NCBI GenBank assembly: GCA_016197005.1
Contig: JACPWO010000001.1
Coordinates: forward strand, 346,544-410,543
Origin: Candidatus Anderseniibacteriota bacterium
Lineage (GTDB): Bacteria > Patescibacteriota > Andersenbacteria > UBA10190
DNA: 64,000 nt
Reading direction: 5' to 3'
A model generated the notes under the pieces. It was not told the origin of the DNA. It did no database searches and saw only the letters and a program-made list of their open reading frames with translations. Of this stretch, positions 1 to 20,764 are shown piece after piece. The position numbers and the translations under genes were made by a program. How positions within the stretch are numbered: the first letter of the stretch is position 1; each line of letters begins with the position of its first letter.

Positions 1-495
1 GGAGGGCTCGCTAAAGGGCATGTCTTCGTGCTTGGTGTTAGCTCCATGATCAAGGTGCAGATGGTCAAGTCCATGTTCGCTCAATTCTTCTTCGTATTGT
101 TGAATAAAAGGGTGCTCCTTTTCCGCACGTTCCCGCCAGCCCATCTTTTCAATACGAGGAAGGCCATATTCGGCAATGACATCACGCCGCGCTAAACGAT
201 CTATTAGTTCCTGCCAAAAGGTCTCGTCATCGTACTCCTCGATAAAGCGCTGAATGTCAGTTTCTTCTTCAAAGGCACGATTGGTAAATATTTCGCCGTC
301 AGCCTCATCAGGATCAAGGTACTTGGTTAACCCAGCGTCTTTGGCGTTCCGTAGAATAAGCTGCTCAATTTCCTCATACTGTTTTAGCGGATTGTCACGA
401 TGGCTGTTAATGAGCCAATTGCCGCAGTAGGCCAGCTTCATGAGGCGCTCATACTGCTCGGGAGAGAATTCAACGGTAATGGTGGATTTGGGCAT
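1..495 (-). CDS. Hypothetical protein, C-terminally truncated by the window edge (165 codons from ATG at 495 run off position 1 without a stop)
   Basis: Manual reverse-complement translation gives MPKSTITVEFSPEQYERLMKLAYCGNWLINSH... with no stop codon. The six-frame track omits it because it is open-ended. No recognisable family. Confidence 0.4.
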   Translation of the reverse strand, partial: MPKSTITVEFSPEQYERLMKLAYCGNWLINSHRDNPLKQYEEIEQLILRNAKDAGLTKYLDPDEADGEIFTNRAFEEETDIQRFIEEYDDETFWQELIDRLARRDVIAEYGLPRIEKMGWRERAEKEHPFIQQYEEELSEHGLDHLHLDHGANTKHEDMPFSEPS

Positions 496-499
496 AAAG

Positions 500-922
500 C
501 TACTGTAAGTTAGTTTCTTTAAAACCCCTCCGAACTACCTTGCGCATGACATCGGTGATAGGTTCAAGGCGATTTAGTTCCTCCGCTGTAACCCACATGA
601 ATTTTTGATGTTCAGGACTAAGTACTACATTCGGCTCTTCTATGAGTTTGCACAGATATGCAATCTCACACATCAAATGGCCATCTGCATGGGTATATTC
701 AAATTGGTGATATGAGTGTAAAGGCTTCACCGTTATTCCTGCTTCTTCTTTGACTTCTCGTATAACTGCTTCCTCATGACTTTCATTCGGTTCGACTTTA
801 CCACCAACTTGTTCCCAGTAATTCGGCAGGAATTCCTCACCTGCGACACGCTGCACTAAAAGGGCTTTTCCTTGCCATGGGATAAAGGCAGTGACGAAGA
901 TATTATCGTACTGCGCTTTCAT
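500..922 (-). CDS. NUDIX hydrolase
   Basis: Nudix box GGKVEPNESHEEAVIREVKEEAGI (GX5EX7REUXEEXGU). Size is about 140 aa. Confidence 0.8.
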   Translation of the reverse strand: MKAQYDNIFVTAFIPWQGKALLVQRVAGEEFLPNYWEQVGGKVEPNESHEEAVIREVKEEAGITVKPLHSYHQFEYTHADGHLMCEIAYLCKLIEEPNVVLSPEHQKFMWVTAEELNRLEPITDVMRKVVRRGFKETNLQ

Positions 923-940
923 AAAAGGGTAGAAAACTAC

Positions 941-1231
941 TCATTGCTTAACTATTTTCTTTGAGACAGCACCTGTAAACAACCTGTAGGCAGGTCTGTT
1001 TTCTTTTTTGTAGATCTTCTTAATTCCCAGAACCTCACTGCACTTTGGACACGACAACTTAGTTGCTGTTGTTGAATAATTCAAAATCCTATCGAGGTAG
1101 AGTCTCTTGAGAATGCCTGGGCCGTCTTTTTGATATCTAAATAGTTCTTTTCCGCAATGTGAGCACGATAACTGTAATATTCTTGAGTACCCTCCTCGCG
1201 CTTTGCGGTATTTATCGTTTTTCATAATCAA
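941..1231 (-). CDS. Small zinc-ribbon protein (CxxC...CxxC)
   Basis: Two Cys pairs, CSHCGK and CPKCSE, in a basic 96-aa protein. It sits between two NUDIX genes in the same operon. Confidence 0.45.
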   Translation of the reverse strand: MIMKNDKYRKARGGYSRILQLSCSHCGKELFRYQKDGPGILKRLYLDRILNYSTTATKLSCPKCSEVLGIKKIYKKENRPAYRLFTGAVSKKIVKQ

Positions 1232-1243
1232 CTCTGTACTATG

Positions 1244-1666
1244 TTACTCTTTCCATCTTCTGACAAATTCAAATCCGGCTAGGAGTGCTTGCCGTTCAGA
1301 ATCAGGCATAGGATTAACGGCCTTACCCCCTTCTTCTGTAACCCACTGGTATGCCTGATGTTCTGGGCTAAGGGAAATAGTTGGCTCACCGATTAATTCA
1401 CAAATAACTGCTATTTCTACTTCATGTTGTTCATCATTTCGAATAATGTCACATAGCCAATATGGTTGAACTGGTTTAATCTCTAAACCAGTTTCTTCCT
1501 TCACTTCACGAATTAAGCCGTCGAACGGCTTTTCACCCCACTCAATCTTGCCACCTACTTGTTCCCAATTATTGGGGCGGAAATTATCTTTGGCTGATCG
1601 TTGAACGATAAGAGCTTTATCGTCATGTACAATAAAGGCCGAGACCGCAATATTTTGGTACTTCAT
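1244..1666 (-). CDS. NUDIX hydrolase (second paralog)
   Basis: Nudix box GGKIEWGEKPFDGLIREVKEETGLEI. Paralogous to 500..922. Confidence 0.8.
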   Translation of the reverse strand: MKYQNIAVSAFIVHDDKALIVQRSAKDNFRPNNWEQVGGKIEWGEKPFDGLIREVKEETGLEIKPVQPYWLCDIIRNDEQHEVEIAVICELIGEPTISLSPEHQAYQWVTEEGGKAVNPMPDSERQALLAGFEFVRRWKE

Positions 1667-1668
1667 AA

Positions 1669-2436
1669 TTAATACTCTCGCTTCATTCCATCAAAGGCGA
1701 TTGTGTACTGTGGGAATTTCTGCTCTAAGTCAGCATGCGTCAGATCTTGATACGATCCAATATTTGTCAGAATAATCTCCTTCGCACTAAGCTTTCTTAA
1801 GAATGGAATAATCTGTTCCTTCTGAAGGTGGGTTGGATCATCACTAATATCTGATTCTAAATACGTAGCGTCCGTGATAATAGCGTCACTGTCTTTAACG
1901 AGTTCGGCTGTTTTTATGGGAATGCCGCGCAAGTCTGAAAGGTAAGCAATCTTTTTGTTGGTTGTCATGTCTTCAAAAAAGAATCCGTCCGTATCCTCAA
2001 CATGATTAATAGTGATAGGGGTGATACGGACATTATCTATCTCAAATGGTTTGTACGACTCAAATACCTGGAAATCTACGTTAATATGGCTCATACGGGA
2101 GTCGTACCACTCTTTTGTTATGCTGTTGCCATAGACGGTGAGTTTGTTTTTCTCGGTATACCAATCTAACTCCATTAACCCGAAAAGGTGATCATAGTGC
2201 CAGTGGGAAATGAGGAAAGCATCAGGTTTGCCGAGCTTGAATTTCCATGATTGGAGCCGAATATCTGGAGTAGCTTCGACAATAATATTTTTGCCATGTT
2301 CAGTTTGGATATGGGCTGAGGTTCTAAAACGAAAATCTTTGGAATCCCACTCTACCTTCTGGCTAATTTCGTCGTCGCCAAAAGGCGCTGGAATTCCTTG
2401 CCAACAACCGCTGCCGAGAAAAGTTAATTTAATCAT
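1669..2436 (-). CDS. MBL-fold metallo-hydrolase
   Basis: HxHxDH motif SHWHYDHLFG. There are 2 nt between its start and the stop of the upstream NUDIX gene. Confidence 0.7.
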   Translation of the reverse strand: MIKLTFLGSGCWQGIPAPFGDDEISQKVEWDSKDFRFRTSAHIQTEHGKNIIVEATPDIRLQSWKFKLGKPDAFLISHWHYDHLFGLMELDWYTEKNKLTVYGNSITKEWYDSRMSHINVDFQVFESYKPFEIDNVRITPITINHVEDTDGFFFEDMTTNKKIAYLSDLRGIPIKTAELVKDSDAIITDATYLESDISDDPTHLQKEQIIPFLRKLSAKEIILTNIGSYQDLTHADLEQKFPQYTIAFDGMKREY

Positions 2437-2517
2437 GTGAACTATATTTATACGAAAAATAGTCTTAACTATGTATTCAGATTAGACTAAATTTAGCGAG
2501 TATGACACGCCTATTTT

Positions 2518-3330
2518 ATGATCATTGACGCTCACACCCATATCGGCGCCATGGGTAAAGATGACCGCAATGTGACGGTGGCCGATTTACTGCAATCAAT
2601 GGATGAGGCAGGAATTGACATGTCGTTGATTCTCGCGAATGACATTGCCGTGTCGGATGATTGGCGTGGTATGTCAGCTGATGACATTCTGACTCAATGT
2701 GCAGGGAACGATCGAATAAAAGTGATTGGTAATATTACTATTAGTCGAGATATCAATGATCAGCTTCTACGACTCAGAGAACATGTGGAAGCTGGGGTTG
2801 TTGTTGGTATTAAACTGTACCCTGGCTATGAAAACTTTTATCCGTCAGACGAGCGACTGAAGCCAGTGTATGAGTTTTGCCAAAAATTTAATATTCCGGT
2901 CGTGCTGCACACAGGGTTTCTTCTGCAAGGATCTCCCGGTATTCAGGAGCAAGCCCATCCTAACAGTATTGATAAGATCGTTAATCTTTTCCCCGAGCTT
3001 ATTTTCATAATGGCTCATTTTGGCAATCCATGGACAGCTGAAGCAGCCAGGGTTATAGCCCAGCATCAAAACATTTACGCTGATCTTTCTGGTTTTTTTA
3101 CGGAATACGATGAACATATCTCTCTAGAAGAAAAGGCTGATTTTTACCAGAAAATGAAAGAATTTATTAGTATTACTGGCAATCTAAAGAAATGCCTCTT
3201 TGGTACTGATTGGCCACTCTACAGTCAGAAAGAATATCTGGCAGCAGTACAAGAACTGCCTATGAAAGATGAGGAGCGTGATCTCTTTTTTTGGAAAAAT
3301 TCGAGCAGGATATTTGGTCTGGCAGCATAA
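2518..3330 (+). CDS. Amidohydrolase-family metal-dependent hydrolase (TIM barrel)
   Basis: N-terminal IIDAHTHIG metal-binding motif typical of amidohydrolase_2 / TatD-like folds. Internal His/Asp residues are at expected positions. Confidence 0.6.
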   Translation: MIIDAHTHIGAMGKDDRNVTVADLLQSMDEAGIDMSLILANDIAVSDDWRGMSADDILTQCAGNDRIKVIGNITISRDINDQLLRLREHVEAGVVVGIKLYPGYENFYPSDERLKPVYEFCQKFNIPVVLHTGFLLQGSPGIQEQAHPNSIDKIVNLFPELIFIMAHFGNPWTAEAARVIAQHQNIYADLSGFFTEYDEHISLEEKADFYQKMKEFISITGNLKKCLFGTDWPLYSQKEYLAAVQELPMKDEERDLFFWKNSSRIFGLAA

Positions 3331-3352
3331 TTTTCTAATTCAATCTTATGAC

Positions 3353-4294
3353 TTATCTGCTAAGCGGTGTCACCGTATACTTCTTTAAAATCTGACAAGG
3401 ATAATAGCCTTTTTTAGCTTCCCTTAATCCAGGCAGTCCAGCATCCTGTTCGAGATTTAAGTATTGACACCCGCGCGTTGCCAGCGCTCGGGCCGTCTCC
3501 TGCCTCAAATAAGGATAGACTCCTGTAAATGAAATTGCATCGGCTTTTTCAAAATGCAAAAGAGCATAAGACTTTCCAACTACTTCGCTGATAGAAAATC
3601 CAATTAGCTGTTTATTAACGAATATCCCAATAGTAATAAGTTGAAATGACTTAGCATGTTTCAGAAGGCGATGAAATGGAAGAAACTCATCCGTCTCCTG
3701 CGTGTTAAACCCTTTTTGTTTTGCCCAGAATGAAAATAGTTCTTGAATCATCGTCTGAACATCAGGATCATTTAAATCACACTCATTCGTCGTTGACCGA
3801 TATAGCTTGCGGAAACGGTTTACGAAATTTCGCTTTCCGCGTAGGGCATGACTTCTGTATGTCATGAGTTCAGGGATAGACAGAATATAATCAAAATTGT
3901 TTGGGTCCTCCTTAATGGTAAACTGATCCGCTCTGATTCCATTGATGCATTCCTCAGGCACAAGACGTAATTTCTTCTTCAAACCTTTGTTGTCAACAAA
4001 AGCAAATAGCTGGTTCAGAGCTTCTTGGGATAGATGACGGCTTAAGAATGAATAAAATGGCTTTCCGGTAAAGTAGTCAGTAAATCGTACTATGAGGTTT
4101 TCTTCAAGCTGGGATAACTGTATTTCATCCTTTACGTTCCAAATCCATAAACTAGTAAAGTTGTAGTCTGAATAAGGCAAAAAAGATTGCGTAAAGGATT
4201 CAATCGCAAGGTGGTCAGCGAGCTGTAATTTCTTGAAATTAGGGAATTGAGGAATCACGTTCGTCATACTATTGCAGTAATCCTTGTTTTTCAA
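3353..4294 (-). CDS. Conserved hypothetical, DUF2156-like (MprF C-domain / VlmA-like aminoacyl-tRNA-dependent transferase fold); paralog of 16605..17534
   Basis: N-terminal pattern FPNFKKLQLADHLAIESF...YSDYNFTSLWIWN resembles the start of DUF2156 / LPG_synthase_C proteins of about 300 aa. There is a clear paralog elsewhere in the window. Family assignment is from memory, not a search. Confidence 0.45.
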   Translation of the reverse strand: MKNKDYCNSMTNVIPQFPNFKKLQLADHLAIESFTQSFLPYSDYNFTSLWIWNVKDEIQLSQLEENLIVRFTDYFTGKPFYSFLSRHLSQEALNQLFAFVDNKGLKKKLRLVPEECINGIRADQFTIKEDPNNFDYILSIPELMTYRSHALRGKRNFVNRFRKLYRSTTNECDLNDPDVQTMIQELFSFWAKQKGFNTQETDEFLPFHRLLKHAKSFQLITIGIFVNKQLIGFSISEVVGKSYALLHFEKADAISFTGVYPYLRQETARALATRGCQYLNLEQDAGLPGLREAKKGYYPCQILKKYTVTPLSR

Positions 4295-4349
4295 ATTATT
4301 ATCTTTCTGCTAGCTTAATTAGTTACGGCCAATAAGATATTTTCTCAAA

Positions 4350-5426
4350 ATGAACCATACCCCTACAACTGTGAATTCTTACAATGAATGGGATCCTCTG
4401 GAGGAGGTCATTGTTGGCGTTGTTGAGGGCTCAACCATTCCCCAGTGGCATGTGACGCTTGAGGCAACAATGCCAAAAAAATATTGGAGCCTATTTCGTC
4501 AAAAAGGCGGAAAATTGTTTCCAGAGGGTCAAATAACTGCGGCAAAAAAAGAACTTGATGAATTTTGTCGTTTATTGGAATCAGAAGGAGTTACTGTCCG
4601 TCGTCCTGATACAATTCCTTTCAATAAACCTTACTCCTCTCCAGAATGGACTTCTCACGGCGGATTATATGCTGCAATGCCGAGAGACATATTACTAGTC
4701 ATAGGAAACGAAATAATTGAATCGCCTATGGCTTGGCGATCCAGATATTTTGAGATTGAAGCCTATCGTTCACTTTTGAAGGATTACTTTGCAAAAGGAG
4801 CAAAGTGGAGTTCAGCACCCAAACCATTGCTGGGTGGTAAACTTTATAATGATGCCTATGGTAAAAACCAAACTCAGGACAAATTAGAATACGCAATCAC
4901 TGAACATGAACCTGTCTTTGATGCCGCAGATTTCATACGCTGCGGCAGAGATATTTTCGTACAGCAAAGCAACGTCACTAACCAATTAGGAATTGAGTGG
5001 TTGCAAAGACACTTGGGTAGTACTTACAGGATTCATACGCTTAAGTTTGAAGATAAACACCCAATGCATATCGATGCAACTTTTATGCCGCTAGCCCCAG
5101 GAAAGCTCCTCATTAATCCTGAGAGAGTCGGGCAGATTCCTTCAATGTTTAAGGGCTGGGATATTTTGACTGCACCGCGACCATCTATTCCAGGTGAACA
5201 CCCTCTTTATTTTACGAGCAAATGGGTAAGCATCAATGTCCTGATGCTCGATGAAGAAAGAGTGATTGTGGAGAAAAATGAATTACCGTTAATACATTCC
5301 TTCAAAAGCTGGGGTTTTAAAGTAATCCCTTGTAGTTTCCGTAATTTCAATACTTTTGGTGGTTCATTTCATTGCGCCACAGTGGACATTCGGAGAAGAG
5401 GTACGCTCCAATCATATTTTGACTAA
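4350..5426 (+). CDS. Amidinotransferase (AGAT / StrB1 family)
   Basis: N-terminal NEWDPLEEVIVG, catalytic-His region PMHIDATFMPL and C-terminal catalytic Cys in GGSFHCATVD. Length 358 aa is typical for the family. Confidence 0.75.
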   Translation: MNHTPTTVNSYNEWDPLEEVIVGVVEGSTIPQWHVTLEATMPKKYWSLFRQKGGKLFPEGQITAAKKELDEFCRLLESEGVTVRRPDTIPFNKPYSSPEWTSHGGLYAAMPRDILLVIGNEIIESPMAWRSRYFEIEAYRSLLKDYFAKGAKWSSAPKPLLGGKLYNDAYGKNQTQDKLEYAITEHEPVFDAADFIRCGRDIFVQQSNVTNQLGIEWLQRHLGSTYRIHTLKFEDKHPMHIDATFMPLAPGKLLINPERVGQIPSMFKGWDILTAPRPSIPGEHPLYFTSKWVSINVLMLDEERVIVEKNELPLIHSFKSWGFKVIPCSFRNFNTFGGSFHCATVDIRRRGTLQSYFD

Positions 5427-5451
5427 ATTGAAGCGTCGTCAGTTTACTGAA

Positions 5452-6657
5452 TCAAATTTTTTCAATTGCTTTCTCGAGCAAATCAATATCTCTTGTAACG
5501 CAGACCCGAGTCCATGATCCTTCATCCATAGGATTAAGCATAAATGCCTCACCGGGATAGGTGGCCAAGCCTTTACTCATAAATTCTCTTACAAAATCTG
5601 GTGCGGGAAGATCTTTATAGTAGCGAAAGAAAATACTATTTCCCCCATCGGGAGGGATTACGTCTTTTACTTTCGGATGGTTTTTTAGCTTGGCAACTAT
5701 ACGTTTGTTGTACTGTTCTTGAAGATTCATATTATTTGAAATTGTATCTGTATAATTTGTAATTTCTGGCTCTGAAAAATATTTAAGATCAGGATGTTTG
5801 ACTCCTGAAAGTTCTTTATAACGTAGTGCAATATCAAGAAGAAGGAGATAATCTGAAATAATCCCGTTCGAAATATTTCTGACCATTTGAATTTTTTCAA
5901 TACCGGGCAGTAGTCTCTTATCACCCACACAGTAACCACAACGAATTCCAGTCATTCCCGGCCGATCTTTAGACGGACCAAAAAACTTAACATAATTTTT
6001 ATAGCCACCATTGACCCCAGCAATATGGACGGGCTGTTGATCTCTATATAGAGAGTCAATGTAGATCTCATCAGACAATATAAAGAAATCGTACCGACGC
6101 GATAACTTAACTAAAGCATTAACCCATTCTCGAGAGAACGATTTACCAGTTGGATTATTTGGGTTAGAAAAAAGAACAGCTGCCGTCCTTGTGCTCACAG
6201 TATTCTCTAATTGATCAACTGTTGGTAGAAAATCATTCTCACGCAAGGAACGGATTACAATAGGCATTCCTTTCGCACTCTCAACCACCGAATGAAATAT
6301 TGGATAATCCGGAGAAAATAGTACTACCTCTCGTCTCTTATCATCCAAATCAAACACTGCTTGAAGAACAGGATATATAAGGTTGCTGACTCCGCTTCCA
6401 ATAAAAGAAAATGGCTTATCATTTGTCTTGCGTTGAGCTAGATACCCTTCATACTCAATCACTAGTTTTCTCAGACGTTTAATACCACCAAAGTCAGAAT
6501 AGGTTAGTCTATGGTACTCAAATACCAAGTCAATGGCGCGTTTAAATATTACGGGCATTTTAAATACACGAGTGTCATAGTCCATCCATTCCAGCCGATC
6601 TAGGCTTTCAAATTCAAGAAATTCCTTCTCGTAATCAAACATCCTCTTATAAATCAT
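5452..6657 (-). CDS. PLP-dependent aminotransferase, class I/II
   Basis: NPNNPTG motif and a lysine region SKDRPGMTGIRCGY. Length is about 400 aa. It is the last gene of the minus-strand operon. Confidence 0.7.
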   Translation of the reverse strand: MIYKRMFDYEKEFLEFESLDRLEWMDYDTRVFKMPVIFKRAIDLVFEYHRLTYSDFGGIKRLRKLVIEYEGYLAQRKTNDKPFSFIGSGVSNLIYPVLQAVFDLDDKRREVVLFSPDYPIFHSVVESAKGMPIVIRSLRENDFLPTVDQLENTVSTRTAAVLFSNPNNPTGKSFSREWVNALVKLSRRYDFFILSDEIYIDSLYRDQQPVHIAGVNGGYKNYVKFFGPSKDRPGMTGIRCGYCVGDKRLLPGIEKIQMVRNISNGIISDYLLLLDIALRYKELSGVKHPDLKYFSEPEITNYTDTISNNMNLQEQYNKRIVAKLKNHPKVKDVIPPDGGNSIFFRYYKDLPAPDFVREFMSKGLATYPGEAFMLNPMDEGSWTRVCVTRDIDLLEKAIEKI

Positions 6658-6672
6658 ATGCGAATAGCAAAG

Positions 6673-7077
6673 TTATGTACTCTTTTCATAAACAAAGCCG
6701 CGGCGAATTATTTTGACCTTAAATTTTTTAAGACCGTACGCTAAAAATTCTCTTTTAAGAGTATCAATCGCAACTTCTGTTTTCTCCCGCGCACTACAGG
6801 TAAAAAGATCAATAGCGATATATTTCTTCTCTGGCCATGTATGAAAGGCAAGGTGAGATTCAGAAAGTAGATAGAAACCTGTCAGTCCAAATTCCTTAAA
6901 TTCATGAAATTCCTTTTTGATTACATTCAATTCTGCATGGTTAACGACATTCTCGATTTTCTTCCCGAATGTTGTTGAATGATGCAATTCTTCTGGATAG
7001 TTCTTCAAAAGAATTTCAATCAGAGCGTGATATCCGCGATTTTGATTATTTTTTCTCTTGGTAAAAATGCCTAACAT
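6673..7077 (-). CDS. speH: S-adenosylmethionine decarboxylase proenzyme, pyruvoyl type (SpeH/class 1B)
   Basis: FGLTGFYLLSESHLAFHTWPE and AIDLFTC match the SpeH ESH-S-HTWPE processing motif. The start was moved to the internal Met (MLGIF...), because the track ORF 6673..7188 would overlap speE by about 100 nt. Confidence 0.8.
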   Translation of the reverse strand: MLGIFTKRKNNQNRGYHALIEILLKNYPEELHHSTTFGKKIENVVNHAELNVIKKEFHEFKEFGLTGFYLLSESHLAFHTWPEKKYIAIDLFTCSAREKTEVAIDTLKREFLAYGLKKFKVKIIRRGFVYEKST

Positions 7078-7084
7078 AGCTGCC

Positions 7085-7972
7085 TTACCCTGAATTACCA
7101 TTGAAAAAGTTTGGGACAGTAAAAATAGAACGTAGGTTCCGTGGAGTAATGTATTTGAGGCTAATTTTGGAATCCATGCGTTTTTCAAATTGATTTTCGG
7201 TCATATCCAAGGGGTTTAAAGCCTGATCGTTAGTGGCAAGTAAGAACCCCCAAGAACATTCAAAGAAAGGTACATAGACTCGATAGGAAAAGACGTTGGC
7301 GAAAATGTTGTGTAGGAGTTTACTCATAGCTAAATGCTTGTGATAGTGTATTTCGGTTAACTCGGAAGAATGCATAGCCAAGATACCATTCGTTTTTAAT
7401 CTTTTCTTAATTAATTCATAAAAATCAGCTTGCTCGCGAGCTTCGGCTGCGCCGAGATTAAAAAAGTTGACGTCAGTAATATCTGAAATTATTACATCGT
7501 ACTGATTAACTGTACTTTTAAGAAAATCGCCCGCGTTTCTAAATTGTAAATTCACTTTCTGATGGTCATACGAATTATGATGCATTTCCTTAAGGTGCTT
7601 TTGAAATAGCTGAACGGCCTGACGATCAACATCAATAGCGTCAATGTTTTTTATATGGTCATATTTTAGTAGCTCTCTCAAAGAAGCACCCTCGCCGGCA
7701 CCTAACACCAGTACACGAAAATTGTGATTGTGCTGGCTACAAACCATCGCGGGATGTACTAGGCATTCATGGTATATCCATTCATCTTTAGTCGCACTTT
7801 GCGGTATGCCGTCAATGAATAGACTCAATCCATAGTCATAGAGGTCATAAATTTCAACCTTTTGAAAAGGTGTTTGTTCTTGAACGATGACTTCTTTAAT
7901 CCGATGACGGATTATTTCGTTTTTACAGTAGGCATCTTCAGCCCATTCTTGTAGTAATAACATCGCTATCAA
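7085..7972 (-). CDS. speE: Polyamine aminopropyltransferase (spermidine synthase family)
   Basis: VLVLGAGEGASLRELLKY, IDAIDVDRQAV and YDVIISDITD (dcSAM and amine binding motifs). It sits directly upstream of speH. Confidence 0.75.
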   Translation of the reverse strand: MIAMLLLQEWAEDAYCKNEIIRHRIKEVIVQEQTPFQKVEIYDLYDYGLSLFIDGIPQSATKDEWIYHECLVHPAMVCSQHNHNFRVLVLGAGEGASLRELLKYDHIKNIDAIDVDRQAVQLFQKHLKEMHHNSYDHQKVNLQFRNAGDFLKSTVNQYDVIISDITDVNFFNLGAAEAREQADFYELIKKRLKTNGILAMHSSELTEIHYHKHLAMSKLLHNIFANVFSYRVYVPFFECSWGFLLATNDQALNPLDMTENQFEKRMDSKISLKYITPRNLRSIFTVPNFFNGNSG

Positions 7973-8916
7973 CTAGGATTAGACCCGGTAATAGGTCGCG
8001 TCTGGAATATGTAGAGGTGCTTACCAAAAAAGGACCATTCAATGTCCTGGGAAGCTTGCATGATCTTTTCAATTTTTGATGCCGTTTTAGCAACAGTCAT
8101 AATCGCTTCTCCCGTGAGCTTTTGATTCTTCTGTTCCTTTCTAATGATATTCTTTTGCAACTTTTCCCCTTTATAACTGTTCAGATTTTTGTTCTGAGAA
8201 CCTACTTCAATATCGAGAATTATTCCCTTTTTCTTATCGATCCAATATCTATCTGGTGTCACATCGCCATGAACCAAAAGTTCACCAAGCCCCCAAATGG
8301 CCTCGATAACGATGAGATTAGAATCGTCACTGCTGGGATCTTTCGTAAAACACACTCCGGATACGTCACTATTGATCATTTGTTGAACAAGCACTGCCAT
8401 GTCATTTGCAAAAGGCAGATTATGTTTATTCGCATACATCAATGCTCGGGATGTGTAGAGAGATGCCCAACATTTTTTAATATGCTGCATCAAACCACCT
8501 GCATTGACAAAGGTGTATGTATCGAATTCTCCGGCCCATGAGTGATTCTCTTGATCCTCACAAGACGCTGAGGATCGTACGGCTACATAGTCAGTATTGA
8601 GCTCTTGAAAGGCTGCACTAATTGCCGATTCAATGTGATGGGGAATTTTAAGTTCTTCCAAAACTTTTCGCAAACTTTGAGACACACTATCCACATTTTT
8701 CATTTTTGAGTCTCGAAGCTCAGTTAAAAGGCTATCTATTTTTTTGTCCAATCCATCTGACGTTCTAATATCACTCAAAACTGAAGCAAGGATAACAAAG
8801 CCCTTAGGAACATTTATATGATTTGTTACTAATGTGCCAAGAGGCAAGGCTTTACCACCCACCTCTTGTACATCGAATTTATGTACTTGAGCTAATGGTA
8901 TGGTTACTTTTGTCAT
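7969..8916 (-). CDS. PEP-utilising enzyme, ATP-binding N-domain only (PPDK_N / PEP synthase-like phosphotransferase)
   Basis: VQEVGGKALPLGTLV...VPKGFVI matches the PPDK_N consensus GGKxxNLxxL...VPxGFxI. There is no swivel His domain in this ORF. It overlaps the upstream gene by 4 nt. Confidence 0.7.
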   Translation of the reverse strand: MTKVTIPLAQVHKFDVQEVGGKALPLGTLVTNHINVPKGFVILASVLSDIRTSDGLDKKIDSLLTELRDSKMKNVDSVSQSLRKVLEELKIPHHIESAISAAFQELNTDYVAVRSSASCEDQENHSWAGEFDTYTFVNAGGLMQHIKKCWASLYTSRALMYANKHNLPFANDMAVLVQQMINSDVSGVCFTKDPSSDDSNLIVIEAIWGLGELLVHGDVTPDRYWIDKKKGIILDIEVGSQNKNLNSYKGEKLQKNIIRKEQKNQKLTGEAIMTVAKTASKIEKIMQASQDIEWSFFGKHLYIFQTRPITGSNPS

Positions 8917-8928
8917 ACAAAGTGCAGT

Positions 8929-10098
8929 TTAGATAATCGAGACTTCTGCATTGGTGGCGTCAACCAATAGCTGCATACCTGTTTTCAAAGTTTTAGTTGC
9001 ATAAGATGTTCCAACAATACAAGGTATCTTCATTTCTCGAGCAATTAAAGCTGCATGAGAAGTAATACCACCTTCATCCGTGACAATGGCTGCCACATCT
9101 TTAAATACTGGAACCAACTCTGGTGATGTCATGGGAGCGACTAATATACCACCCCTTTCAAAGTCCTCTATGAATTGTTCATATTCCTCAGTAGTAACGA
9201 TCGAGGGCAACACTACAGCCTTGCCAGTAACTCTTCCGGGATAAGCGGTTGAGCCCTTAATAGTACGTCCAGTCTGGGTGGGCATAAAAGAGTCTCTAAA
9301 ATCAATAAATTGCTTATCGGTAATCTCAATAAATTCAGTACCATTGACTTTGAGAGCAAACGCTTCCTTGCGTTTGTTGGCATTATTGATATCAGGCTTT
9401 ATGTCCTTCAAGAGCAGATCTTTAAGTTCTCGATAGTTGAGACTCGAAACTTGGGTTACTGCCAAATAAAACCTTCGTGCTGTTTCCTCAAGCAAGGCAT
9501 CAGCATAATGAGTTGTGATTAAACTGTTACGTTTTGCTTCAAATCGCTTTTTTGATATCTCGCGTAGAAACTGGATTATCTGCTTAATCTCCTGCTCAAG
9601 CGCCATACCAACATCAACCCCCGCTAAAAGTTTGGCTTTGAGATATTCTCTTTTTTCCTTGTTCTTCTCCTGCTTTTCTAAGAGTTGGTCTATTTTCCCC
9701 TCTAGTAAGTCAAGATAATGTGGCTCTGTATAACGATAGTAATACAAAAATCGCCTCATTAAATCGAACAATTCTTTATATAAATCAAACAGGGCGCTGT
9801 TACTTGCCTTTCTGAGTACTTGTTTGGAATAGCGTTTTCTTGTCACCTCTGTTTCTTTGGCTATAGCCAAAAGATTTTTCTCAACATCTGCATATTTATC
9901 TTGGACAAATAGAGATTCGCCAAGTTTTTGTATCATAGTGAGTTCTCTAACAGTAGCGTAGGCGCTGAGCTGAGTGTGCTCATACACCAATACCCCCTCT
10001 TTTTGAAAATAGGTTGGCGCAACTACGTTTTCTGTCCACAAATAATCGATATAGCTTTCTCTCCAAAGAAAAACATGCTTTTCTGCCGCCTTTTTCAT
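8929..10098 (-). CDS. PEP-utilising enzyme, substrate-domain plus C-terminal phospho-His swivel domain
   Basis: C-terminal DEGGITSHAALIAREMKIPCIVGT is the PEP-utilizers mobile-domain signature with the phosphoryl-carrier His. The N-terminal 280 aa have no recognisable motif. Confidence 0.7.
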   Translation of the reverse strand: MKKAAEKHVFLWRESYIDYLWTENVVAPTYFQKEGVLVYEHTQLSAYATVRELTMIQKLGESLFVQDKYADVEKNLLAIAKETEVTRKRYSKQVLRKASNSALFDLYKELFDLMRRFLYYYRYTEPHYLDLLEGKIDQLLEKQEKNKEKREYLKAKLLAGVDVGMALEQEIKQIIQFLREISKKRFEAKRNSLITTHYADALLEETARRFYLAVTQVSSLNYRELKDLLLKDIKPDINNANKRKEAFALKVNGTEFIEITDKQFIDFRDSFMPTQTGRTIKGSTAYPGRVTGKAVVLPSIVTTEEYEQFIEDFERGGILVAPMTSPELVPVFKDVAAIVTDEGGITSHAALIAREMKIPCIVGTSYATKTLKTGMQLLVDATNAEVSII

Positions 10099-11204
10099 AT
10101 ATTCTGCGTTCGTATTATAAATTTCAGTTGGTTTGTTCTAACTAAGTTAAATACATCATAGTTAGTCTCAGAAACTTTCTCGATTATTTTTCTGGATTGA
10201 GAAGCTGATATCTGGTCTACGTCAAGATAGATATAAGCAATTCCTTCCTTAACACTAACTTTGATCTTATATTGGGGGACATGTCCCAAGACTTCTTGCA
10301 GAATCTCTTGCATGTTTTTCTGTCTGATCTTCACCCCATCTAGCAGATAATGGGTTTTGCCAACCCGGCCACGTAGTATTAAACGAGGATTCCTTAAACC
10401 ACAAGAGCATTGATCTCGCAAAATTTTGCCAGCATCACCAGTGCAATAGCGAATAATCGGCTGAGCATGACACATTAAGTTAGTCATCACGATCTCGCCA
10501 AATCTACCATCTGGGACAATATTGTCGCTTTTAAGAGATTTAATCTCCAAATAGACTTTATCCTCTCGGTAGTGATAGCCATTATGATTTTTGCACTCTA
10601 CCCCAACTACTCCTTCCGTAAGACCATAAGCATCAAATATCTCTGCATTATAGATTTTCTCCAGCCTCGCTCTTTGTTTTTCATTCATGGGCTCACCTGT
10701 AGTTTCCAGAACCTTAAAGTTCCTTTTAGATAATATGTCCGCATACTCCTCAAGTTTTGAAGGCAACGTAGAGATCACTGTTGGAGCGACAGCATCCAAC
10801 ACTTCGGTAATTGCTTCTTTAGATCTTAAATCAATCGGTATAACAGAATTACCCGCTGCAATGTGACCAAGACACGTAAGCGGCCCAACAGCCCAGAACG
10901 AGTGATCCATGAGCACGGCCACTGTTTCGCCACCAGCAATTCCTTCTACCTCACAAAACCATTGAATATAATCAGCGGTATTTCGAATATCGCTTGAGTT
11001 GGAATAGAGCGCTTTAGGTTTCTTAGTCGTGCCGCTCGTAAAATATACGCGTAAATCACTCTCAAATCTGAAAAGTAACTCATTGATTTTTGCCTCAAGC
11101 GAAGTCTCGTGCATGAATGGTAGTGATTTCAGAAGAGCAGTGAAATTTCTGCCTAGAACCCGCTCTCTTGCCTCATCTTCTATTTTAGTAAAAATCTGAC
11201 TCAT
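10095..11204 (-). CDS. PaaK/CapK-like adenylate-forming ligase (coenzyme F390 synthetase family)
   Basis: YFTSGTTKKPKALY (SGTTGKPK-type AMP-binding loop) and YGLTEG. Length 369 aa fits PaaK-like enzymes. Confidence 0.65.
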   Translation of the reverse strand: MSQIFTKIEDEARERVLGRNFTALLKSLPFMHETSLEAKINELLFRFESDLRVYFTSGTTKKPKALYSNSSDIRNTADYIQWFCEVEGIAGGETVAVLMDHSFWAVGPLTCLGHIAAGNSVIPIDLRSKEAITEVLDAVAPTVISTLPSKLEEYADILSKRNFKVLETTGEPMNEKQRARLEKIYNAEIFDAYGLTEGVVGVECKNHNGYHYREDKVYLEIKSLKSDNIVPDGRFGEIVMTNLMCHAQPIIRYCTGDAGKILRDQCSCGLRNPRLILRGRVGKTHYLLDGVKIRQKNMQEILQEVLGHVPQYKIKVSVKEGIAYIYLDVDQISASQSRKIIEKVSETNYDVFNLVRTNQLKFIIRTQNI

Positions 11205-12523
11205 ACTCTTGAGCTCCTAAATTTTCTTAGATCACGAATTTCAACTTTTCTATTTTGCTGGGAAGTATCTCTATCTATGCTCCGGATAATAACAGCGATA
11301 TGTGCATACTCCTCAAACATTACATCATTAAAATCAAGCGATAATGTTCTAATAGCTTGAGTTACTTTTTGAGTGAGAAACTTTTTCTGCCTCTGTGTTG
11401 ATACATCTTTTGCATTAAAGAAAGCTGTAAATTTTATCAAATCTTTGCCGCCATGATCGTCTTTGATCACTACATCACATTTTTGAACTTTTGGATTGAG
11501 TCCGTCCAAAGCTTGTTCTACTTGATATGAATGGAGATTCACTCCTCCTGATATTTCATAGTAGTCACCATCTCTGCCAGTCCACTGCAGTCTTGGCCAA
11601 TCACTTCCGCACTGACATTTCTGGTAATTGATTTTTCCACGATCTCCAGACTTGTACCGAATAATAGGAATTGCCTCTGAGGTTAGATCGGTTAACAGAA
11701 CAGAACCTTCCGACTCAGTTGGTAAATTATTTTGTGGATCAACCACCTCAACTAGTATTCTGTCAGGATCAAAATGATAGCCACATTGATATTTACACTC
11801 CATTCCCATAAAACATTCACTTGATCCATACGATGCCAGAAGATTAACGCCGTACTTATCTTTGTAGTAACCCCTCAGCTCGTTTGAAACGTGATCTCCT
11901 GAAGTTATGACCTTCTCAATTGGAGAAAGCTTGCCTTCCTCAATCGAGCTTTCGATAAACTTTAGAATACTCGGCGTTGTGGCTATTATATTAATATTCA
12001 TTTGTTTAGCCTGATTCCATATGTGCCGCATGACATACTGGTCATTACTAAGACCAGCAGGAAGAACATTGGATTCCAAAATATGAAAAGCGTGCTGGGC
12101 AGAATGGCCAGCAGCCCACGGACCAAACGGCAATGCAATCCATACGCTGTCAAATTTCGTAATGCCAGCAAGCCGGTAACAATTAGCGCGGTATTCATTT
12201 CGAGCTCGCCATTCCTTTTTTGTTACTGGAATAACCTTTGGTTTTCCGGTAGTGTCGCCGGTCAAAAAATAATAAGCGACGTTACTTCGCTTAATAGCGA
12301 CATTTTTTATTGCGAATAATGACTTATCGGCCGGTTTAAGTTTGAAGAAGTCATCCCAATCAACCGAAGCCTCATTCCATATTCCTTCCCAGATCTGTTG
12401 ATAGTAAATAGATTTTTTGTATGCCTCTTTTGCCAGCGACCATACACTGGCTAAAACCTGATCCTGGTATGTTGTTTTAGGTTCGAGGTCGGCATTTTTG
12501 TTAATTGCTAAAATATTAGCCAT
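11201..12523 (-). CDS. PaaK/CapK-like adenylate-forming ligase, second paralog
   Basis: FLTGDTTGKPKVIPVT and YGSSEC. The start is placed at internal Met MANILAINK. The track ORF extends to 12568, which would leave only 37 bp to the divergent gene. Confidence 0.6.
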   Translation of the reverse strand: MANILAINKNADLEPKTTYQDQVLASVWSLAKEAYKKSIYYQQIWEGIWNEASVDWDDFFKLKPADKSLFAIKNVAIKRSNVAYYFLTGDTTGKPKVIPVTKKEWRARNEYRANCYRLAGITKFDSVWIALPFGPWAAGHSAQHAFHILESNVLPAGLSNDQYVMRHIWNQAKQMNINIIATTPSILKFIESSIEEGKLSPIEKVITSGDHVSNELRGYYKDKYGVNLLASYGSSECFMGMECKYQCGYHFDPDRILVEVVDPQNNLPTESEGSVLLTDLTSEAIPIIRYKSGDRGKINYQKCQCGSDWPRLQWTGRDGDYYEISGGVNLHSYQVEQALDGLNPKVQKCDVVIKDDHGGKDLIKFTAFFNAKDVSTQRQKKFLTQKVTQAIRTLSLDFNDVMFEEYAHIAVIIRSIDRDTSQQNRKVEIRDLRKFRSSRV

Positions 12524-12605
12524 ACGCCTAAAAATTGCATAGAATGCGGAATTTGGCAATATTGGCACACTATAAAAAACCTGATATAGTCCTCAGGATT
12601 ACCAT

Positions 12606-13076
12606 ATGCATATTTATGTCACATCCGGCACGGGCACCGGCCCCACCCCCTTAGCTGCTTTTGATGCGGCCGTGATGGCAGCCAGTGAATCGAATCATAA
12701 TATGATTTATCTTTCTTGCTTTATTCCCCCCGGCAGTGTGATAGTACGCGCTCGAAACCCTCTTCTACTTAAGTCGTGGGGTCAACGAATTTATGTTGTG
12801 ATGTCTCGTCAGGATGCTTCTGAAATAGGACAGGAAGCTTGGACTAGTTTGGGTTGGGTGCAGGATCAGAGCGGGCGAGGTATGTTTGTTGAACATCATG
12901 GAAGAAGCAAGAAGGAAGTTCATAATGATATTCAAGCCACTCTAAATTTTATGGTAAGAAGCCGCAATATGGACTTTGGCCCTATTGAGCACGAACTTAC
13001 GGGCATCAAATGTGAAGGCCAGCCCGTATGCGCCGTAACCATGGCAGTGTATAAAATTGAAAACTGGGAGAGTTAA
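12606..13076 (+). CDS. Pyruvoyl-dependent arginine decarboxylase-like protein (PdaD family)
   Basis: VTSGTGTGPTPLAAFDAAVMAA...NMIYLSCFIPP parallels the PdaD N-terminal consensus (tSGvGeGetpLnAFDaAL...NLvrvSSIiPP). It is 156 aa and transcribed divergently from the operon. Confidence 0.65.
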   Translation: MHIYVTSGTGTGPTPLAAFDAAVMAASESNHNMIYLSCFIPPGSVIVRARNPLLLKSWGQRIYVVMSRQDASEIGQEAWTSLGWVQDQSGRGMFVEHHGRSKKEVHNDIQATLNFMVRSRNMDFGPIEHELTGIKCEGQPVCAVTMAVYKIENWES

Positions 13077-13106
13077 AGCAGAGTGGCACAGCAGCTTTAC
13101 TGAGAA

Positions 13107-13583
13107 TTATTGGGATTCTTTTTCTTGTAAATCTCTAATTTTTCTTTCCGCACCCGCTATATCTATTACTCCCTTAGCAGCCGTGAATACCTCTTCAGGC
13201 GTTGTTTTTGCCTTCACTAAATAATCTGCCGCTTGTAGCTCCCTGGCTCTGTCGTGATCCTGTTTCGTATCAAGATTAGACAAAATAATGACTGGAATAT
13301 CCTTAATATCTGGATCTCCTTTCAGCATGATTAAAAAGTTGAAGCCATAATTCTTATCAGTCTCAGAGACTGGAGTATTAGGTTCTTTGCCTAAAATAAG
13401 ATCGAGTAAGATTACGTCGGGCTTCTTCTCTCGAGCCAAGCGATCACCCTCTACGGTATTGTTCGCGCTGATAAACTCGATCTCTTCATGGGATCGCGCA
13501 GTCATCTCATACAATTTAAGGAGCATTGGATCATCATCGATCATGAGAATCTTATTTTTTACTACATTTTTAGAATCAGTCAT
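13107..13583 (-). CDS. Response regulator, receiver domain only (CheY-like)
   Basis: ILMIDDDPMLL...DVILLDLILG...ILSN has the phospho-acceptor Asp and the acidic pocket. No output domain. Confidence 0.75.
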   Translation of the reverse strand: MTDSKNVVKNKILMIDDDPMLLKLYEMTARSHEEIEFISANNTVEGDRLAREKKPDVILLDLILGKEPNTPVSETDKNYGFNFLIMLKGDPDIKDIPVIILSNLDTKQDHDRARELQAADYLVKAKTTPEEVFTAAKGVIDIAGAERKIRDLQEKESQ

Positions 13584-13600
13584 AAGTGTGATAAAAAATA

Positions 13601-14011
13601 TTAACCCTGAAAATCGTGGCTGCCAAGAAATTGGTGAACATGCTCAACAATTTCTCGGGGTAGATACTTCGCTTTCAAAATATAGTCAGCTGCCCCTAAT
13701 CGTTTTACCTCATCAGCCATGTCTTTTTCCCTTTTATTAGACAGGATAATCACCGGAATATTTGCAGTCGAAGGATCTTCTTTAATTTTCTTTAAAACCT
13801 CTAGTCCGTCTAAATCTAGCGTCCCTTCCAAAATAAGGTCAAGCAAGACCAGATCAGGGAGATCATTCTTGACACTCTCCAATCCCTCCTGCGCTGTAGT
13901 CACTGCCTTAAAGTTTTTATACCCCAATTGTTTAAACTGAAAATCATACATAAAACGATGCTGCTTGTTATCTTCGATCATCAGTATCTTGGCTTCAGTG
14001 GCTTCTGGCAT
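13601..14011 (-). CDS. Response regulator, receiver domain only (CheY-like)
   Basis: ILMIEDNKQHRFMY...DLVLLDLILEG...IILSNK. Second stand-alone REC in tandem. Confidence 0.75.
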   Translation of the reverse strand: MPEATEAKILMIEDNKQHRFMYDFQFKQLGYKNFKAVTTAQEGLESVKNDLPDLVLLDLILEGTLDLDGLEVLKKIKEDPSTANIPVIILSNKREKDMADEVKRLGAADYILKAKYLPREIVEHVHQFLGSHDFQG

Positions 14012-14020
14012 AGGTTATGG

Positions 14021-15427: not shown

Positions 15428-15456
15428 AGAGAACGATGATCGGTCGGCCTCTCGAA

Positions 15457-15735: not shown

Positions 15736-15742
15736 AATACTT

Positions 15743-16582: not shown

Positions 16583-16604
16583 GTTTTCATACTAGCACAA
16601 AAGT

Positions 16605-20687: not shown

Positions 20688-20715
20688 ATAGCCACACATA
20701 CGCCGTCGATCCCCT

Positions 20716-20752: not shown

Positions 20753-20764
20753 AATTACAAACCT

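What the first reader, a model, noticed from the sequence alone, without database searches (positions are those of the whole stretch)
4350..5426. Amidinotransferase adjacent to an aminopropyltransferase operon
Catalytic His (PMHIDATF) and Cys (GGSFHCATVD) of the AGAT/StrB1 family are present. An amidinotransferase next to ArgDC, SpeE and SpeH could either strip the amidino group from aminopropylagmatine, replacing the missing ureohydrolase, or add guanidino groups to a polyamine to make hirudonine-like diamidino products. Either would be an unusual bacterial polyamine route.
Basis: inference. Interest (0 to 1): 0.55.

Follow-up and report, generated by a model that had tools for sequence, protein, structure and literature searches.

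The report
Amidinotransferase in CPR polyamine gene cluster
A real arginine-type amidinotransferase gene sits in a conserved ten-gene cluster of an ultra-small (Candidatus Andersenbacteria) bacterium, next to enzymes that make aminopropyl-agmatine and to ligases and a kinase; it most likely helps build a guanidine-decorated polyamine compound and does not simply finish ordinary spermidine synthesis.

Summary
The ORF at 4350-5426 (+) is an intact 358-aa AGAT-family amidinotransferase. It matches human AGAT at E=3e-131 (54% identity), SxtG at 55% and HsvA at 50%, and all catalytic and guanidino-binding residues are present. Pfam and NCBIfam give no family-level hit, so the call rests on direct homology to solved structures.

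The window comes from a Candidatus Andersenbacteria (CPR) genome. SpeE and SpeH are not a housekeeping operon. They are embedded in a tightly packed operon: lig2-lig1-PEPutilizer-PPDK_N-SpeE-SpeH-PLP aminotransferase. The amidinotransferase, a DUF2156/LPG_synthase_C protein and a pyruvoyl arginine decarboxylase flank it.

All ten genes recur in close relatives and in a much more diverged lineage (PEP-utilizer 46%, AMT 64% identity). Related clusters without the decarboxylase also lack the amidinotransferase. In other CPR genomes, AMT homologues sit directly beside basic-amino-acid decarboxylases.

No arginase-fold ureohydrolase is in the window.

The closest precedent is HsvA/phevamine, where an amidinotransferase and ligases act on spermidine. 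I favour arginine-driven guanidinylation of a decarboxylase/SpeE-derived amine (~0.5). Less likely are supply of a guanidino acid (~0.2) and amidino stripping (~0.1).

Novelty: a new variant of a known kind.

The parts
4350..5426 (+). AGAT-family amidinotransferase (AMT), 358 aa. Catalytic D191/H240/C342 correspond to AGAT D254/H303/C407. H237 replaces AGAT N300; R259 corresponds to R322; F288 replaces M353.
3353..4267 (-). Soluble DUF2156/LPG_synthase_C protein (a putative aminoacyl-tRNA-dependent transferase), divergent from AMT. It travels with the cluster in every AMT-containing version.
   Evidence: PF09924, 90 bits; synteny
5452..6657 (-). Class I/II PLP aminotransferase, the last gene of the seven-gene operon and convergent with AMT. 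The best NCBIfam hit is GntC-like but far below its cutoff.
6673..7101 (-). SpeH-type pyruvoyl S-adenosylmethionine decarboxylase with the ESH processing motif.
   Evidence: (TIGR03330 88.1 bits, above cutoff 75.65)
7085..7963 (-). SpeE aminopropyltransferase. Its closest solved relative is the Thermus thermophilus polyamine aminopropyltransferase.
   Evidence: 1uir/3anx at 4.9e-45 versus the next hit at 2.4e-31
7969..8916 (-). PPDK_N ATP-grasp domain protein, the first half of a split PEP-synthase/PigC/Rph-like phosphotransferase.
8929..10098 (-). Protein with a substrate-side domain plus the PEP-utilizers phosphohistidine swivel domain, the second half of the split phosphotransferase.
10095..11204 (-). 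PaaK-like adenylate-forming ligase 1 (DVU_1553-family-like).
11201..12523 (-). PaaK-like adenylate-forming ligase 2, the first gene of the seven-gene operon.
12606..13076 (+). Pyruvoyl-dependent arginine decarboxylase homologue, divergent from the operon. Its processing site is Ser-Cys (LS|CFIPP).
2518..3330 (+). Amidohydro_2 metal hydrolase, a possible accessory gene. It is kept in L004/L031/L032 and inside the related core cluster of L038, but is absent in L003 and L034.
500..2436 (-). Two Nudix hydrolases, a Zn-ribbon protein and a PhnP-like MBL hydrolase, all possible accessory genes. Two Nudix genes also follow the core cluster in L043.
13107..15427 (-). Two response regulators and a histidine kinase flanking the cluster. 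They are conserved in L004/L031/L032, and histidine kinases also flank the L027 and L034 clusters and the stand-alone CPR AMTs.

Best explanation
The gene encodes an active L-arginine-dependent amidinotransferase that works by the ping-pong, Cys-amidino intermediate mechanism known for AGAT. It is a dedicated tailoring enzyme of a CPR-specific specialised polyamine pathway. Inferred sequence of steps: PvlArgDC makes agmatine from arginine; SpeH makes decarboxylated SAM; SpeE aminopropylates agmatine to N1-aminopropylagmatine. The AMT then transfers an amidino group from a second arginine onto a free primary amine of this intermediate. The most likely target is the propylamine end, as with HsvA, which would give a hirudonine-type bis-guanidino moiety; a close derivative is also possible. 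Ornithine is released as by-product. The two PaaK-like ligases, the split phosphohistidine phosphotransferase, the PLP aminotransferase and the DUF2156 transferase build or attach the rest of the molecule. Shown here: the family, the intact active site, the cluster composition and its conservation. Inferred: the direction of transfer, the acceptor and the final product.
For: The active site is intact and homology to solved amidinotransferases spans the full length. The ten-gene set is conserved in Andersenbacteria relatives: L003, L004 and L031/L032 at 79-84% AMT identity. It is also conserved in the diverged lineage L034/L035 (PEP-utilizer 46%, AMT 64%) despite rearrangement of LPGsynC. AMT is present only where PvlArgDC is present. 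It is absent from related clusters that have SpeE/SpeH but no ArgDC (L027, L042/L043) and from the five-gene cores (L028-L030, L037-L040). In other CPR contigs the AMT homologue lies immediately downstream of a PLP Orn/DAP/Arg decarboxylase (L102, L012, L104), and L104 also has two PvlArgDC genes within 3 kb. This points to decarboxylated basic amines as substrates. SpeE's best structural relative is the T. thermophilus polyamine aminopropyltransferase, which from my own knowledge is the agmatine/triamine-specific enzyme. [quoted passage not shown] From established knowledge, every characterised AGAT-family enzyme uses arginine as the physiological donor. Two residues, C73 and F288 (two positions before the substrate-binding Ser290), are shared by all cluster-associated AMTs and are almost absent in 87 other homologues. 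That is consistent with a cluster-specific substrate.
Against: The acceptor site looks generic, not HsvA-like. AGAT R322, which from my own knowledge is the carboxylate binder, is kept (R259); it is W in HsvA and absent in SxtG, and AGAT N300 is His as in 83 of 96 bacterial homologues. The protein is no closer to HsvA (50%) than to AGAT (54%). If both ends of the polyamine became guanidines, no primary amine would be left for the ligases. The AMT of L034 does not group with the Andersenbacteria AMTs in an NJ tree, where the deep nodes are unresolved. The AMT is a separate transcription unit on the opposite strand. No product or activity is known for any member of this cluster, and the held literature has no paper on it.
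Confidence: 0.5

Rival explanations
1. Guanidino-acid supplier. The AMT amidinates a carboxylate-bearing amine, such as glycine, beta-alanine, GABA, ornithine or lysine. This gives guanidinoacetate or a homologue, which a PaaK-like ligase adenylates and joins to the free amine of aminopropylagmatine.
For: R259 (AGAT R322) and S290 (S355), the carboxylate-binding pair of AGAT, are retained, whereas the two characterised non-amino-acid acceptors, HsvA and SxtG, have lost the Arg. The adenylating ligases in the operon need a carboxylic acid substrate. Many homologues at 55-67% identity sit next to giant ORFs that are probably NRPS/PKS (inferred from size only; their domains were not checked), where guanidino-acid starter units would be expected.
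Against: R322 is retained by 91 of 96 homologues in very different contexts, so it may serve only donor binding. The AGAT glycine determinant N300 is replaced by His. This model does not explain the tight AMT-decarboxylase pairing in CPR.
Confidence: 0.2
2. Ureohydrolase substitute. The AMT runs in the opposite sense, moving the amidino group of N1-aminopropylagmatine (or agmatine) onto ornithine or glycine. This releases spermidine (or putrescine) and, with ornithine as acceptor, regenerates arginine.
For: No arginase-fold ureohydrolase is in the cluster or the window. AMT co-occurs strictly with PvlArgDC, as expected if the pair together supplies the di- or triamine. From established knowledge of AGAT, amidino transfer is reversible and roughly isoenergetic.
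Against: No AGAT-family enzyme is known to work physiologically with a polyamine donor. In L102/L012/L104 a PLP Orn/DAP/Arg-type decarboxylase lies next to the AMT, and if it is an ornithine decarboxylase the bypass would be redundant. Only 64 kb of the genome was examined, so an agmatinase may lie elsewhere. L027-type clusters work without AMT/ArgDC while having a 69%-identical SpeE.
Confidence: 0.1
3. The AMT is functionally independent of the neighbouring operon. It could be a stand-alone arginine:glycine amidinotransferase, or an arginine-to-ornithine converter regulated by the adjacent two-component system, and it is only syntenic by descent.
For: It lies on the opposite strand as a single-gene unit. 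Related CPR genomes carry the AMT without the operon, next to histidine kinases. Most of the synteny evidence comes from closely related genomes.
Against: The association survives to 46% PEP-utilizer identity with gene-order changes elsewhere in the cluster (L034/L035). There is a strict presence/absence correlation with PvlArgDC. Cluster-specific residues lie near the substrate loop.
Confidence: 0.1

Closest known systems
HsvA and the hsvABC/phevamine pathway (Erwinia amylovora, Pseudomonas syringae)
   Same: An AGAT-family amidinotransferase is encoded with amide-forming ligases and acts on a spermidine-type polyamine. HsvA puts the amidino group on the propylamine end, which is the only free primary amine of aminopropylagmatine (PMC6187163). 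The match to PDB 5wpi is E=1.9e-122.
   Different: Identity is only 50%. The HsvA-type residues at AGAT positions 300 and 322 (A, W) are H and R here. The ligases are PaaK-like adenylating enzymes, not ATP-grasp. This cluster carries its own ArgDC/SpeE/SpeH plus a phosphohistidine phosphotransferase, a PLP aminotransferase and DUF2156. The host is a CPR bacterium, not a plant pathogen.
Human/vertebrate L-arginine:glycine amidinotransferase (AGAT, PDB 1jdw)
   Same: It is the best-scoring solved relative (E=3e-131, 54% identity). The Cys-His-Asp triad, D170/D305 and R322/S355 are the same.
   Different: N300 is His, W352 is Tyr, M353 is Phe and W408 is Ala. There is no creatine pathway context, and glycine specificity cannot be assumed.
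SxtG and other AGAT-like amidinotransferases encoded in natural-product gene clusters
   Same: Identity to SxtG is 55% (PDB 6u1r, E=5.7e-124). The protein shares the C-terminal GSFHCAT motif and a role as a pathway-dedicated amidinotransferase (PMC12371840).
   Different: SxtG has an insertion and non-Arg residues around AGAT position 322. No PKS/NRPS is present here.
N1-aminopropylagmatine route to spermidine (Thermus thermophilus, Thermococcus), from my own knowledge of the pathway
   Same: PvlArgDC, SpeH and an SpeE closest to the T. thermophilus polyamine aminopropyltransferase are all present.
   Different: The last enzyme, the arginase-fold aminopropylagmatine ureohydrolase, is missing from the cluster and the window. 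The genes are embedded among ligases and a phosphotransferase.

Membership tests
AGAT/StrB1 amidinotransferase family (guanidino-group-modifying enzyme superfamily) | Full-length sequence homology to structurally characterised amidinotransferases | tested here: met
   AGAT E=3e-131 over residues 7-358; SxtG 5.7e-124; HsvA 1.9e-122; StrB1 1e-67
AGAT/StrB1 amidinotransferase family (guanidino-group-modifying enzyme superfamily) | Catalytic Cys407/His303/Asp254 and guanidino-binding Asp170/Asp305 (AGAT numbering) | tested here: met
   C342, H240, D191, D113 and D242 are present, and these positions are invariant in 96 aligned homologues
AGAT/StrB1 amidinotransferase family (guanidino-group-modifying enzyme superfamily) | Hit to a curated family HMM above threshold | tested here: not met
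   Pfam best hit is PF02274 ADI at E=0.087; NCBIfam has only ArgZ/DDAH hits of about 20 bits against cutoffs of 340-1025. These libraries gave no AGAT-specific hit, so this failure says nothing against homology.
AGAT/StrB1 amidinotransferase family (guanidino-group-modifying enzyme superfamily) | Arginine-dependent amidino transfer activity | not testable with these tools
   Requires an enzyme assay
Glycine amidinotransferase (AGAT sensu stricto) | AGAT-type 300-flap residue N300 together with M302 | tested here: not met
   The motif is KHPMH: N300 is His and M302 is kept. JGI's automatic name 'glycine amidinotransferase' for homologues is therefore unproven.
HsvA-type polyamine amidinotransferase | HsvA-like acceptor-site residues (A at AGAT 300, W at AGAT 322) and closer similarity to HsvA than to other family members | tested here: not met
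   H and R at those positions; 50% identity to HsvA versus 54-55% to AGAT and SxtG
HsvA-type polyamine amidinotransferase | Genomic association with ATP-grasp ligases (hsvB/hsvC) | tested here: not met
   The neighbours are PaaK-like AMP-forming ligases and a PPDK_N/PEP-utilizers pair. The arrangement is analogous in logic but not homologous.
N1-aminopropylagmatine spermidine pathway | Arginine decarboxylase, AdoMet decarboxylase and an agmatine-accepting aminopropyltransferase | tested here: inconclusive
   PvlArgDC scores 75 bits on Pfam but 57 bits against a cutoff of 107 on TIGR00286, with D35/N47/E109 conserved. SpeH is above its NCBIfam cutoff. SpeE's best PDB hit is the T. thermophilus polyamine aminopropyltransferase, but its acceptor specificity was not tested.
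N1-aminopropylagmatine spermidine pathway | Arginase-fold aminopropylagmatine ureohydrolase | tested here: not met
   None among the Pfam-scanned ORFs of the window. The rest of the genome was not examined.

The most novel reading that the evidence does not exclude
A ureohydrolase-free, urea-free spermidine route in which arginine acts catalytically. ArgDC and SpeE make N1-aminopropylagmatine. The amidinotransferase then passes its amidino group to ornithine, releasing spermidine and regenerating arginine. The net reaction is ornithine + dcSAM -> spermidine. This would be a new primary polyamine pathway, and the first amidinotransferase used physiologically to remove a guanidino group.
Probability: 0.1. 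Interest if true: 0.75.

Novelty: new variant of a known kind. Interest (0 to 1): 0.5.

Why it matters
CPR/Patescibacteria are thought to have minimal biosynthetic capacity, yet this one keeps a cluster of at least ten genes that spends arginine, SAM and ATP on a polyamine-derived compound. If the product is a guanidino-polyamine conjugate, like the plant-immunity suppressor phevamine, it would be a candidate effector or signal in the epibiont-host interactions of these uncultured bacteria.

It would also extend polyamine amidinotransferases beyond plant pathogens. The nested cluster family (five-gene core; plus SpeE/SpeH; plus ArgDC/AMT/DUF2156) offers a natural set of variants for working out an uncharacterised pathway by heterologous expression.

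Tried and rejected
- **Family HMMs for the AMT.** Pfam and NCBIfam scans gave no usable family hit, so I used PDB homology instead.
- **Defence-system reading.** A PADLOC scan of ten cluster proteins hit only the two Nudix genes, against a generic candidate model, so I dropped this reading.
- **Literature.** No paper combines aminopropylagmatine with amidinotransferase. Hirudonine, amidinospermidine and related terms appear only in the phevamine paper. Nothing was found on PaaK-like + PEP-utilizing + spermidine synthase clusters or on amidinotransferases in CPR. The search for AGAT Arg322 found only a clinical genetics paper. The HsvA and SxtG structure papers are not held, so the roles I give to AGAT residues rest on my own knowledge.
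- **Phylogeny.** The first tree script timed out. The NJ tree with bootstrap resolves the Andersenbacteria AMT clade (71/100) but not deeper nodes, so single versus repeated recruitment of the AMT into the cluster is undecided.
- **Promoter and terminator scan of 3200-13300.** Promoter-like sites were not enriched. Terminator-like sites were above the shuffle expectation (16 versus 7.6) but mostly lie inside genes, so the scan was uninformative.
- **Neighbourhoods of AMT homologues at 67% identity or less.** They share no SpeE/SpeH/ArgDC with the query, so the cluster is lineage-restricted and not a general property of the family.

Full report
**Observation**

The ORF at 4350-5426 (+) is an uninterrupted 358-aa reading frame.

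Against all PDB sequences it matches human L-arginine:glycine amidinotransferase at E=3e-131 over residues 7-358. It matches SxtG at 5.7e-124, HsvA at 1.9e-122 and StrB1 at 1e-67. In a MAFFT alignment it is 54% identical to AGAT, 55% to SxtG and 50% to HsvA.

The AGAT catalytic residues Asp254, His303 and Cys407 are all present, as are the guanidino binders Asp170 and Asp305 and the pair Arg322/Ser355. These positions are invariant or nearly so across 96 aligned homologues.

The family call is therefore sound, with one honest caveat. The curated HMM libraries do not make the call. Pfam's best hit is ADI at E=0.087, and NCBIfam has only ~20-bit hits to arginine dihydrolase and DDAH. This is a gap in the libraries, not a sign of divergence.

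**Organism and immediate context**

A neighbouring protein is 100% identical to an NCBI protein of a Candidatus Andersenbacteria MAG on a 576-kb contig. The closest genome locus for the AMT is also Candidatus Andersenbacteria, at 84% identity. The window is therefore from a CPR/Patescibacteria genome.

Around the AMT lie the following genes:

| Coordinates | Strand | Gene |
|---|---|---|
| 3353-4267 | - | soluble DUF2156/LPG_synthase_C protein |
| 4350-5426 | + | AMT |
| 11201-12523 | - | PaaK-like ligase 2 (first gene of the operon) |
| 10095-11204 | - | PaaK-like ligase 1 |
| 8929-10098 | - | PEP-utilizers phosphohistidine protein |
| 7969-8916 | - | PPDK_N ATP-grasp protein |
| 7085-7963 | - | SpeE |
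| 6673-7101 | - | SpeH |
| 5452-6657 | - | class I/II PLP aminotransferase (last gene of the operon) |
| 12606-13076 | + | pyruvoyl arginine decarboxylase homologue |

The seven minus-strand genes from ligase 2 to the aminotransferase form a tightly packed, partly overlapping operon.

- SpeH passes its NCBIfam equivalog cutoff.
- SpeE's best solved relative, by a wide margin (4.9e-45 versus 2.4e-31), is the Thermus thermophilus polyamine aminopropyltransferase. From my own knowledge this enzyme is agmatine/triamine-specific.
- The ArgDC homologue passes Pfam (75 bits) but not the TIGR00286 cutoff (57 versus 107 bits). It keeps Asp35, Asn47 and Glu109 of the Methanocaldococcus enzyme.
- The PPDK_N/PEP-utilizers pair aligns with the N- and C-terminal parts of PigC, RedH and Rph. 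It therefore looks like a split small-molecule phosphotransferase.

No arginase-fold ureohydrolase was found in any Pfam-scanned ORF of the 64-kb window.

**The cluster is conserved and modular**

All ten genes recur, in the same order, in three further Andersenbacteria-type loci. These are L003 (AMT 79%), and L004 and L031/L032 (AMT 84%).

A metagenome scan seeded with an alignment of PEP-utilizer homologues, followed by tblastn of all cluster proteins, gave two further results.

First, it found the full set in a much more diverged lineage, L034/L035:

| Protein | Identity to the window (%) |
|---|---|
| PEP-utilizer | 46 |
| PPDK_N | 45 |
| SpeE | 58 |
| PvlArgDC | 66 |
| AMT | 64 |
| LPGsynC | 45 |

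In L034/L035 LPGsynC has moved to the other end of the cluster.

Second, it revealed a nested family of clusters:

- **Five-gene core.** PLP aminotransferase, two ligases, PEP-utilizer and PPDK_N, without any polyamine gene (L028-L030, L037-L040).
- **Core plus SpeE/SpeH.** L027, and L042/L043, where SpeH and SpeE are fused into one 353-aa protein.
- **Full version.** The above plus PvlArgDC, AMT and DUF2156.

Within the DNA available, the AMT is present exactly where PvlArgDC is present and nowhere else. SpeE and SpeH are therefore components of a specialised pathway, not a housekeeping polyamine operon. The AMT is an accessory module gained together with the arginine decarboxylase.

**What the wider AMT family does**

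The family is large: 4710 proteins at E<=1e-20, from many phyla. Homologues at 55-67% identity have unrelated neighbourhoods, often next to giant ORFs that are probably NRPS/PKS.

In an NJ tree the Andersenbacteria AMTs form a clade (71/100 bootstrap). The tree places this clade next to other CPR sequences (Berkelbacteria, Saccharibacteria-like), but that node was not bootstrapped. Deeper nodes are unresolved, and the L034 AMT is not placed with the Andersenbacteria clade.

The CPR relatives are informative:

- In three Saccharibacteria-like contigs (L102, L012, L104) a PLP Orn/DAP/Arg-type decarboxylase lies immediately upstream of the AMT. L104 also carries two PvlArgDC genes within 3 kb.
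- In another contig the AMT follows a class-III aminotransferase, an AMP-ligase and an aldehyde dehydrogenase.
- In Berkelbacteria the AMT follows a 514-aa unknown protein that is homologous (E=6e-59) to the unknown protein flanking the L027 cluster.

The recurrent partner of the CPR AMTs is thus a basic-amino-acid decarboxylase. This points to agmatine, putrescine or cadaverine-type amines as substrates.

**Active-site reading**

The acceptor region is the 'generic bacterial' type. His replaces AGAT Asn300 (as in 83 of 96 homologues), Arg322 is retained (91 of 96) and Tyr replaces Trp352. HsvA has Ala and Trp at positions 300 and 322, and SxtG also lacks the Arg. By these markers the protein is not HsvA-like, and its specificity cannot be read from sequence.

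Two residues are shared by every cluster-associated AMT, including L034, and are nearly absent in the other 87 sequences. They are Cys73 and Phe288; the latter replaces an almost invariant Met two residues before the substrate-binding Ser290. I take this as weak evidence for a cluster-specific substrate. The functional roles I give to AGAT residues come from my own knowledge of the AGAT structure, because the relevant papers are not in the held library.

**Mechanism**

The best precedent is the hsv operon. [quoted passage not shown]

In the present cluster, ArgDC and SpeE would make N1-aminopropylagmatine, whose only free primary amine is that same propylamine end. I therefore favour arginine-driven guanidinylation of this intermediate, or of a closely related decarboxylase-derived amine. 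This would be one tailoring step of a guanidino-polyamine conjugate assembled by the ligases, the phosphotransferase, the aminotransferase and the DUF2156 transferase (confidence about 0.5).

The rivals are:

- **Guanidino-acid supplier (0.2).** The AMT would provide a guanidino acid for the adenylating ligases. The retained Arg322/Ser355 support this.
- **Amidino stripping (0.1).** It is compatible with the strict ArgDC-AMT co-occurrence and the reversibility of the reaction. It has no precedent, and it would be redundant where an ornithine-type decarboxylase sits next to the AMT.
- **Functional independence from the operon (0.1).**

None of these can be settled without assays.

**Comparison and novelty**

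The gene is a member of the AGAT/StrB1 amidinotransferase family. It cannot be filed as a glycine amidinotransferase (Asn300 is not conserved) or as an HsvA-type enzyme (marker residues and ATP-grasp partners are absent).

The cluster resembles the hsv/phevamine system in logic: an amidinotransferase, ligases and a spermidine-type polyamine. Its upstream half resembles the Thermus/Thermococcus aminopropylagmatine route. It differs from both in its enzymes and in its host.

I found no description of it in the held literature. I rate it a new variant of a known kind, of moderate interest (0.5). It is a clear, testable lead on specialised metabolism in CPR bacteria, but there is no evidence yet for the product, and a good precedent exists for the chemistry.

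Noticed in passing
window 12606-13076; L003 10861-11334; L004 18262-18732; L034 3573-4112: At the position of the pyruvoyl-forming Ser53 of M. jannaschii PvlArgDC, the ArgDC homologue has Ser-Cys (LS|CFIPP). The window, L004 and L034 have Cys; the L003 orthologue has Ser. A Cys-derived pyruvoyl group would be unusual for this family.
   Followed up: partly
window 18820-26164: A mobile or prophage-like island with higher GC (46-51%). It contains DUF4352, ParB_N fused to an N6/N4 DNA methylase, a second methylase, an HTH_Tnp_1_2 helix-turn-helix protein, a Terminase_6C large terminase and a serine recombinase.
   Followed up: partly
window 15743-17534 and 36505-39417: A second LPG_synthase_C paralogue (16605-17534) lies next to a 279-aa polytopic membrane protein with no Pfam hit (15743-16582). 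A 270-aa paralogue of that membrane protein (36505-37317) sits beside a lysA-like PLP decarboxylase (37360-38499, below the lysA cutoff) and an EamA transporter. That decarboxylase is 41% identical to the one directly upstream of AMT homologues in Saccharibacteria-like contigs L102 and L012.
   Followed up: partly
L043 4944-6005 and 10448-11318: In a distant relative of the core cluster, SpeH and SpeE are fused into one 353-aa protein. Two Nudix genes follow PPDK_N, echoing the two Nudix genes at window 500-922 and 1244-1666.
   Followed up: partly
L027 5903-7432; L100 8380-9924: A ~510-aa protein with no Pfam domain flanks both the AMT-less seven-gene cluster (L027) and the stand-alone AMT of Berkelbacteria (30% identity over 436 aa, E=6e-59). 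In both places it lies next to a HisKA_7TM histidine kinase.
   Followed up: partly
window 1-17534 versus 27000-64000: Cluster genes have GC of 0.35-0.42 (PvlArgDC 0.47), whereas the aminoacyl-tRNA synthetases, TsaD and Ddl in the same window have 0.45-0.49. The cluster may be a horizontally acquired island.
   Followed up: no
window 47962-50659: A TauE exporter, a sulfotransferase and an SbnB-family/ornithine-cyclodeaminase-like dehydrogenase (TIGR03944, 258 bits versus cutoff 327) lie together. This is a possible small sulfated or diamino-acid metabolite unit, unrelated to the finding.
   Followed up: no
L005, L008, L009, L016, L024, L025, L026 (AMT homologue loci): AMT homologues at 55-67% identity from Blastocatellia, Entotheonella, Anaerolineales and others sit beside very large ORFs that are probably NRPS/PKS (inferred from size only; domains not checked). 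Public annotation calls most family members 'glycine amidinotransferase' without evidence.
   Followed up: no
L027 14921-18380; L034 15743-17566; L100 6245-7063: ThiF-family genes recur near the cluster or near the stand-alone AMT. In L027 the ThiF gene is accompanied by an aromatic ammonia-lyase and a methyltransferase, and in L034 by a nitroreductase-like gene. Their significance is unknown.
   Followed up: no
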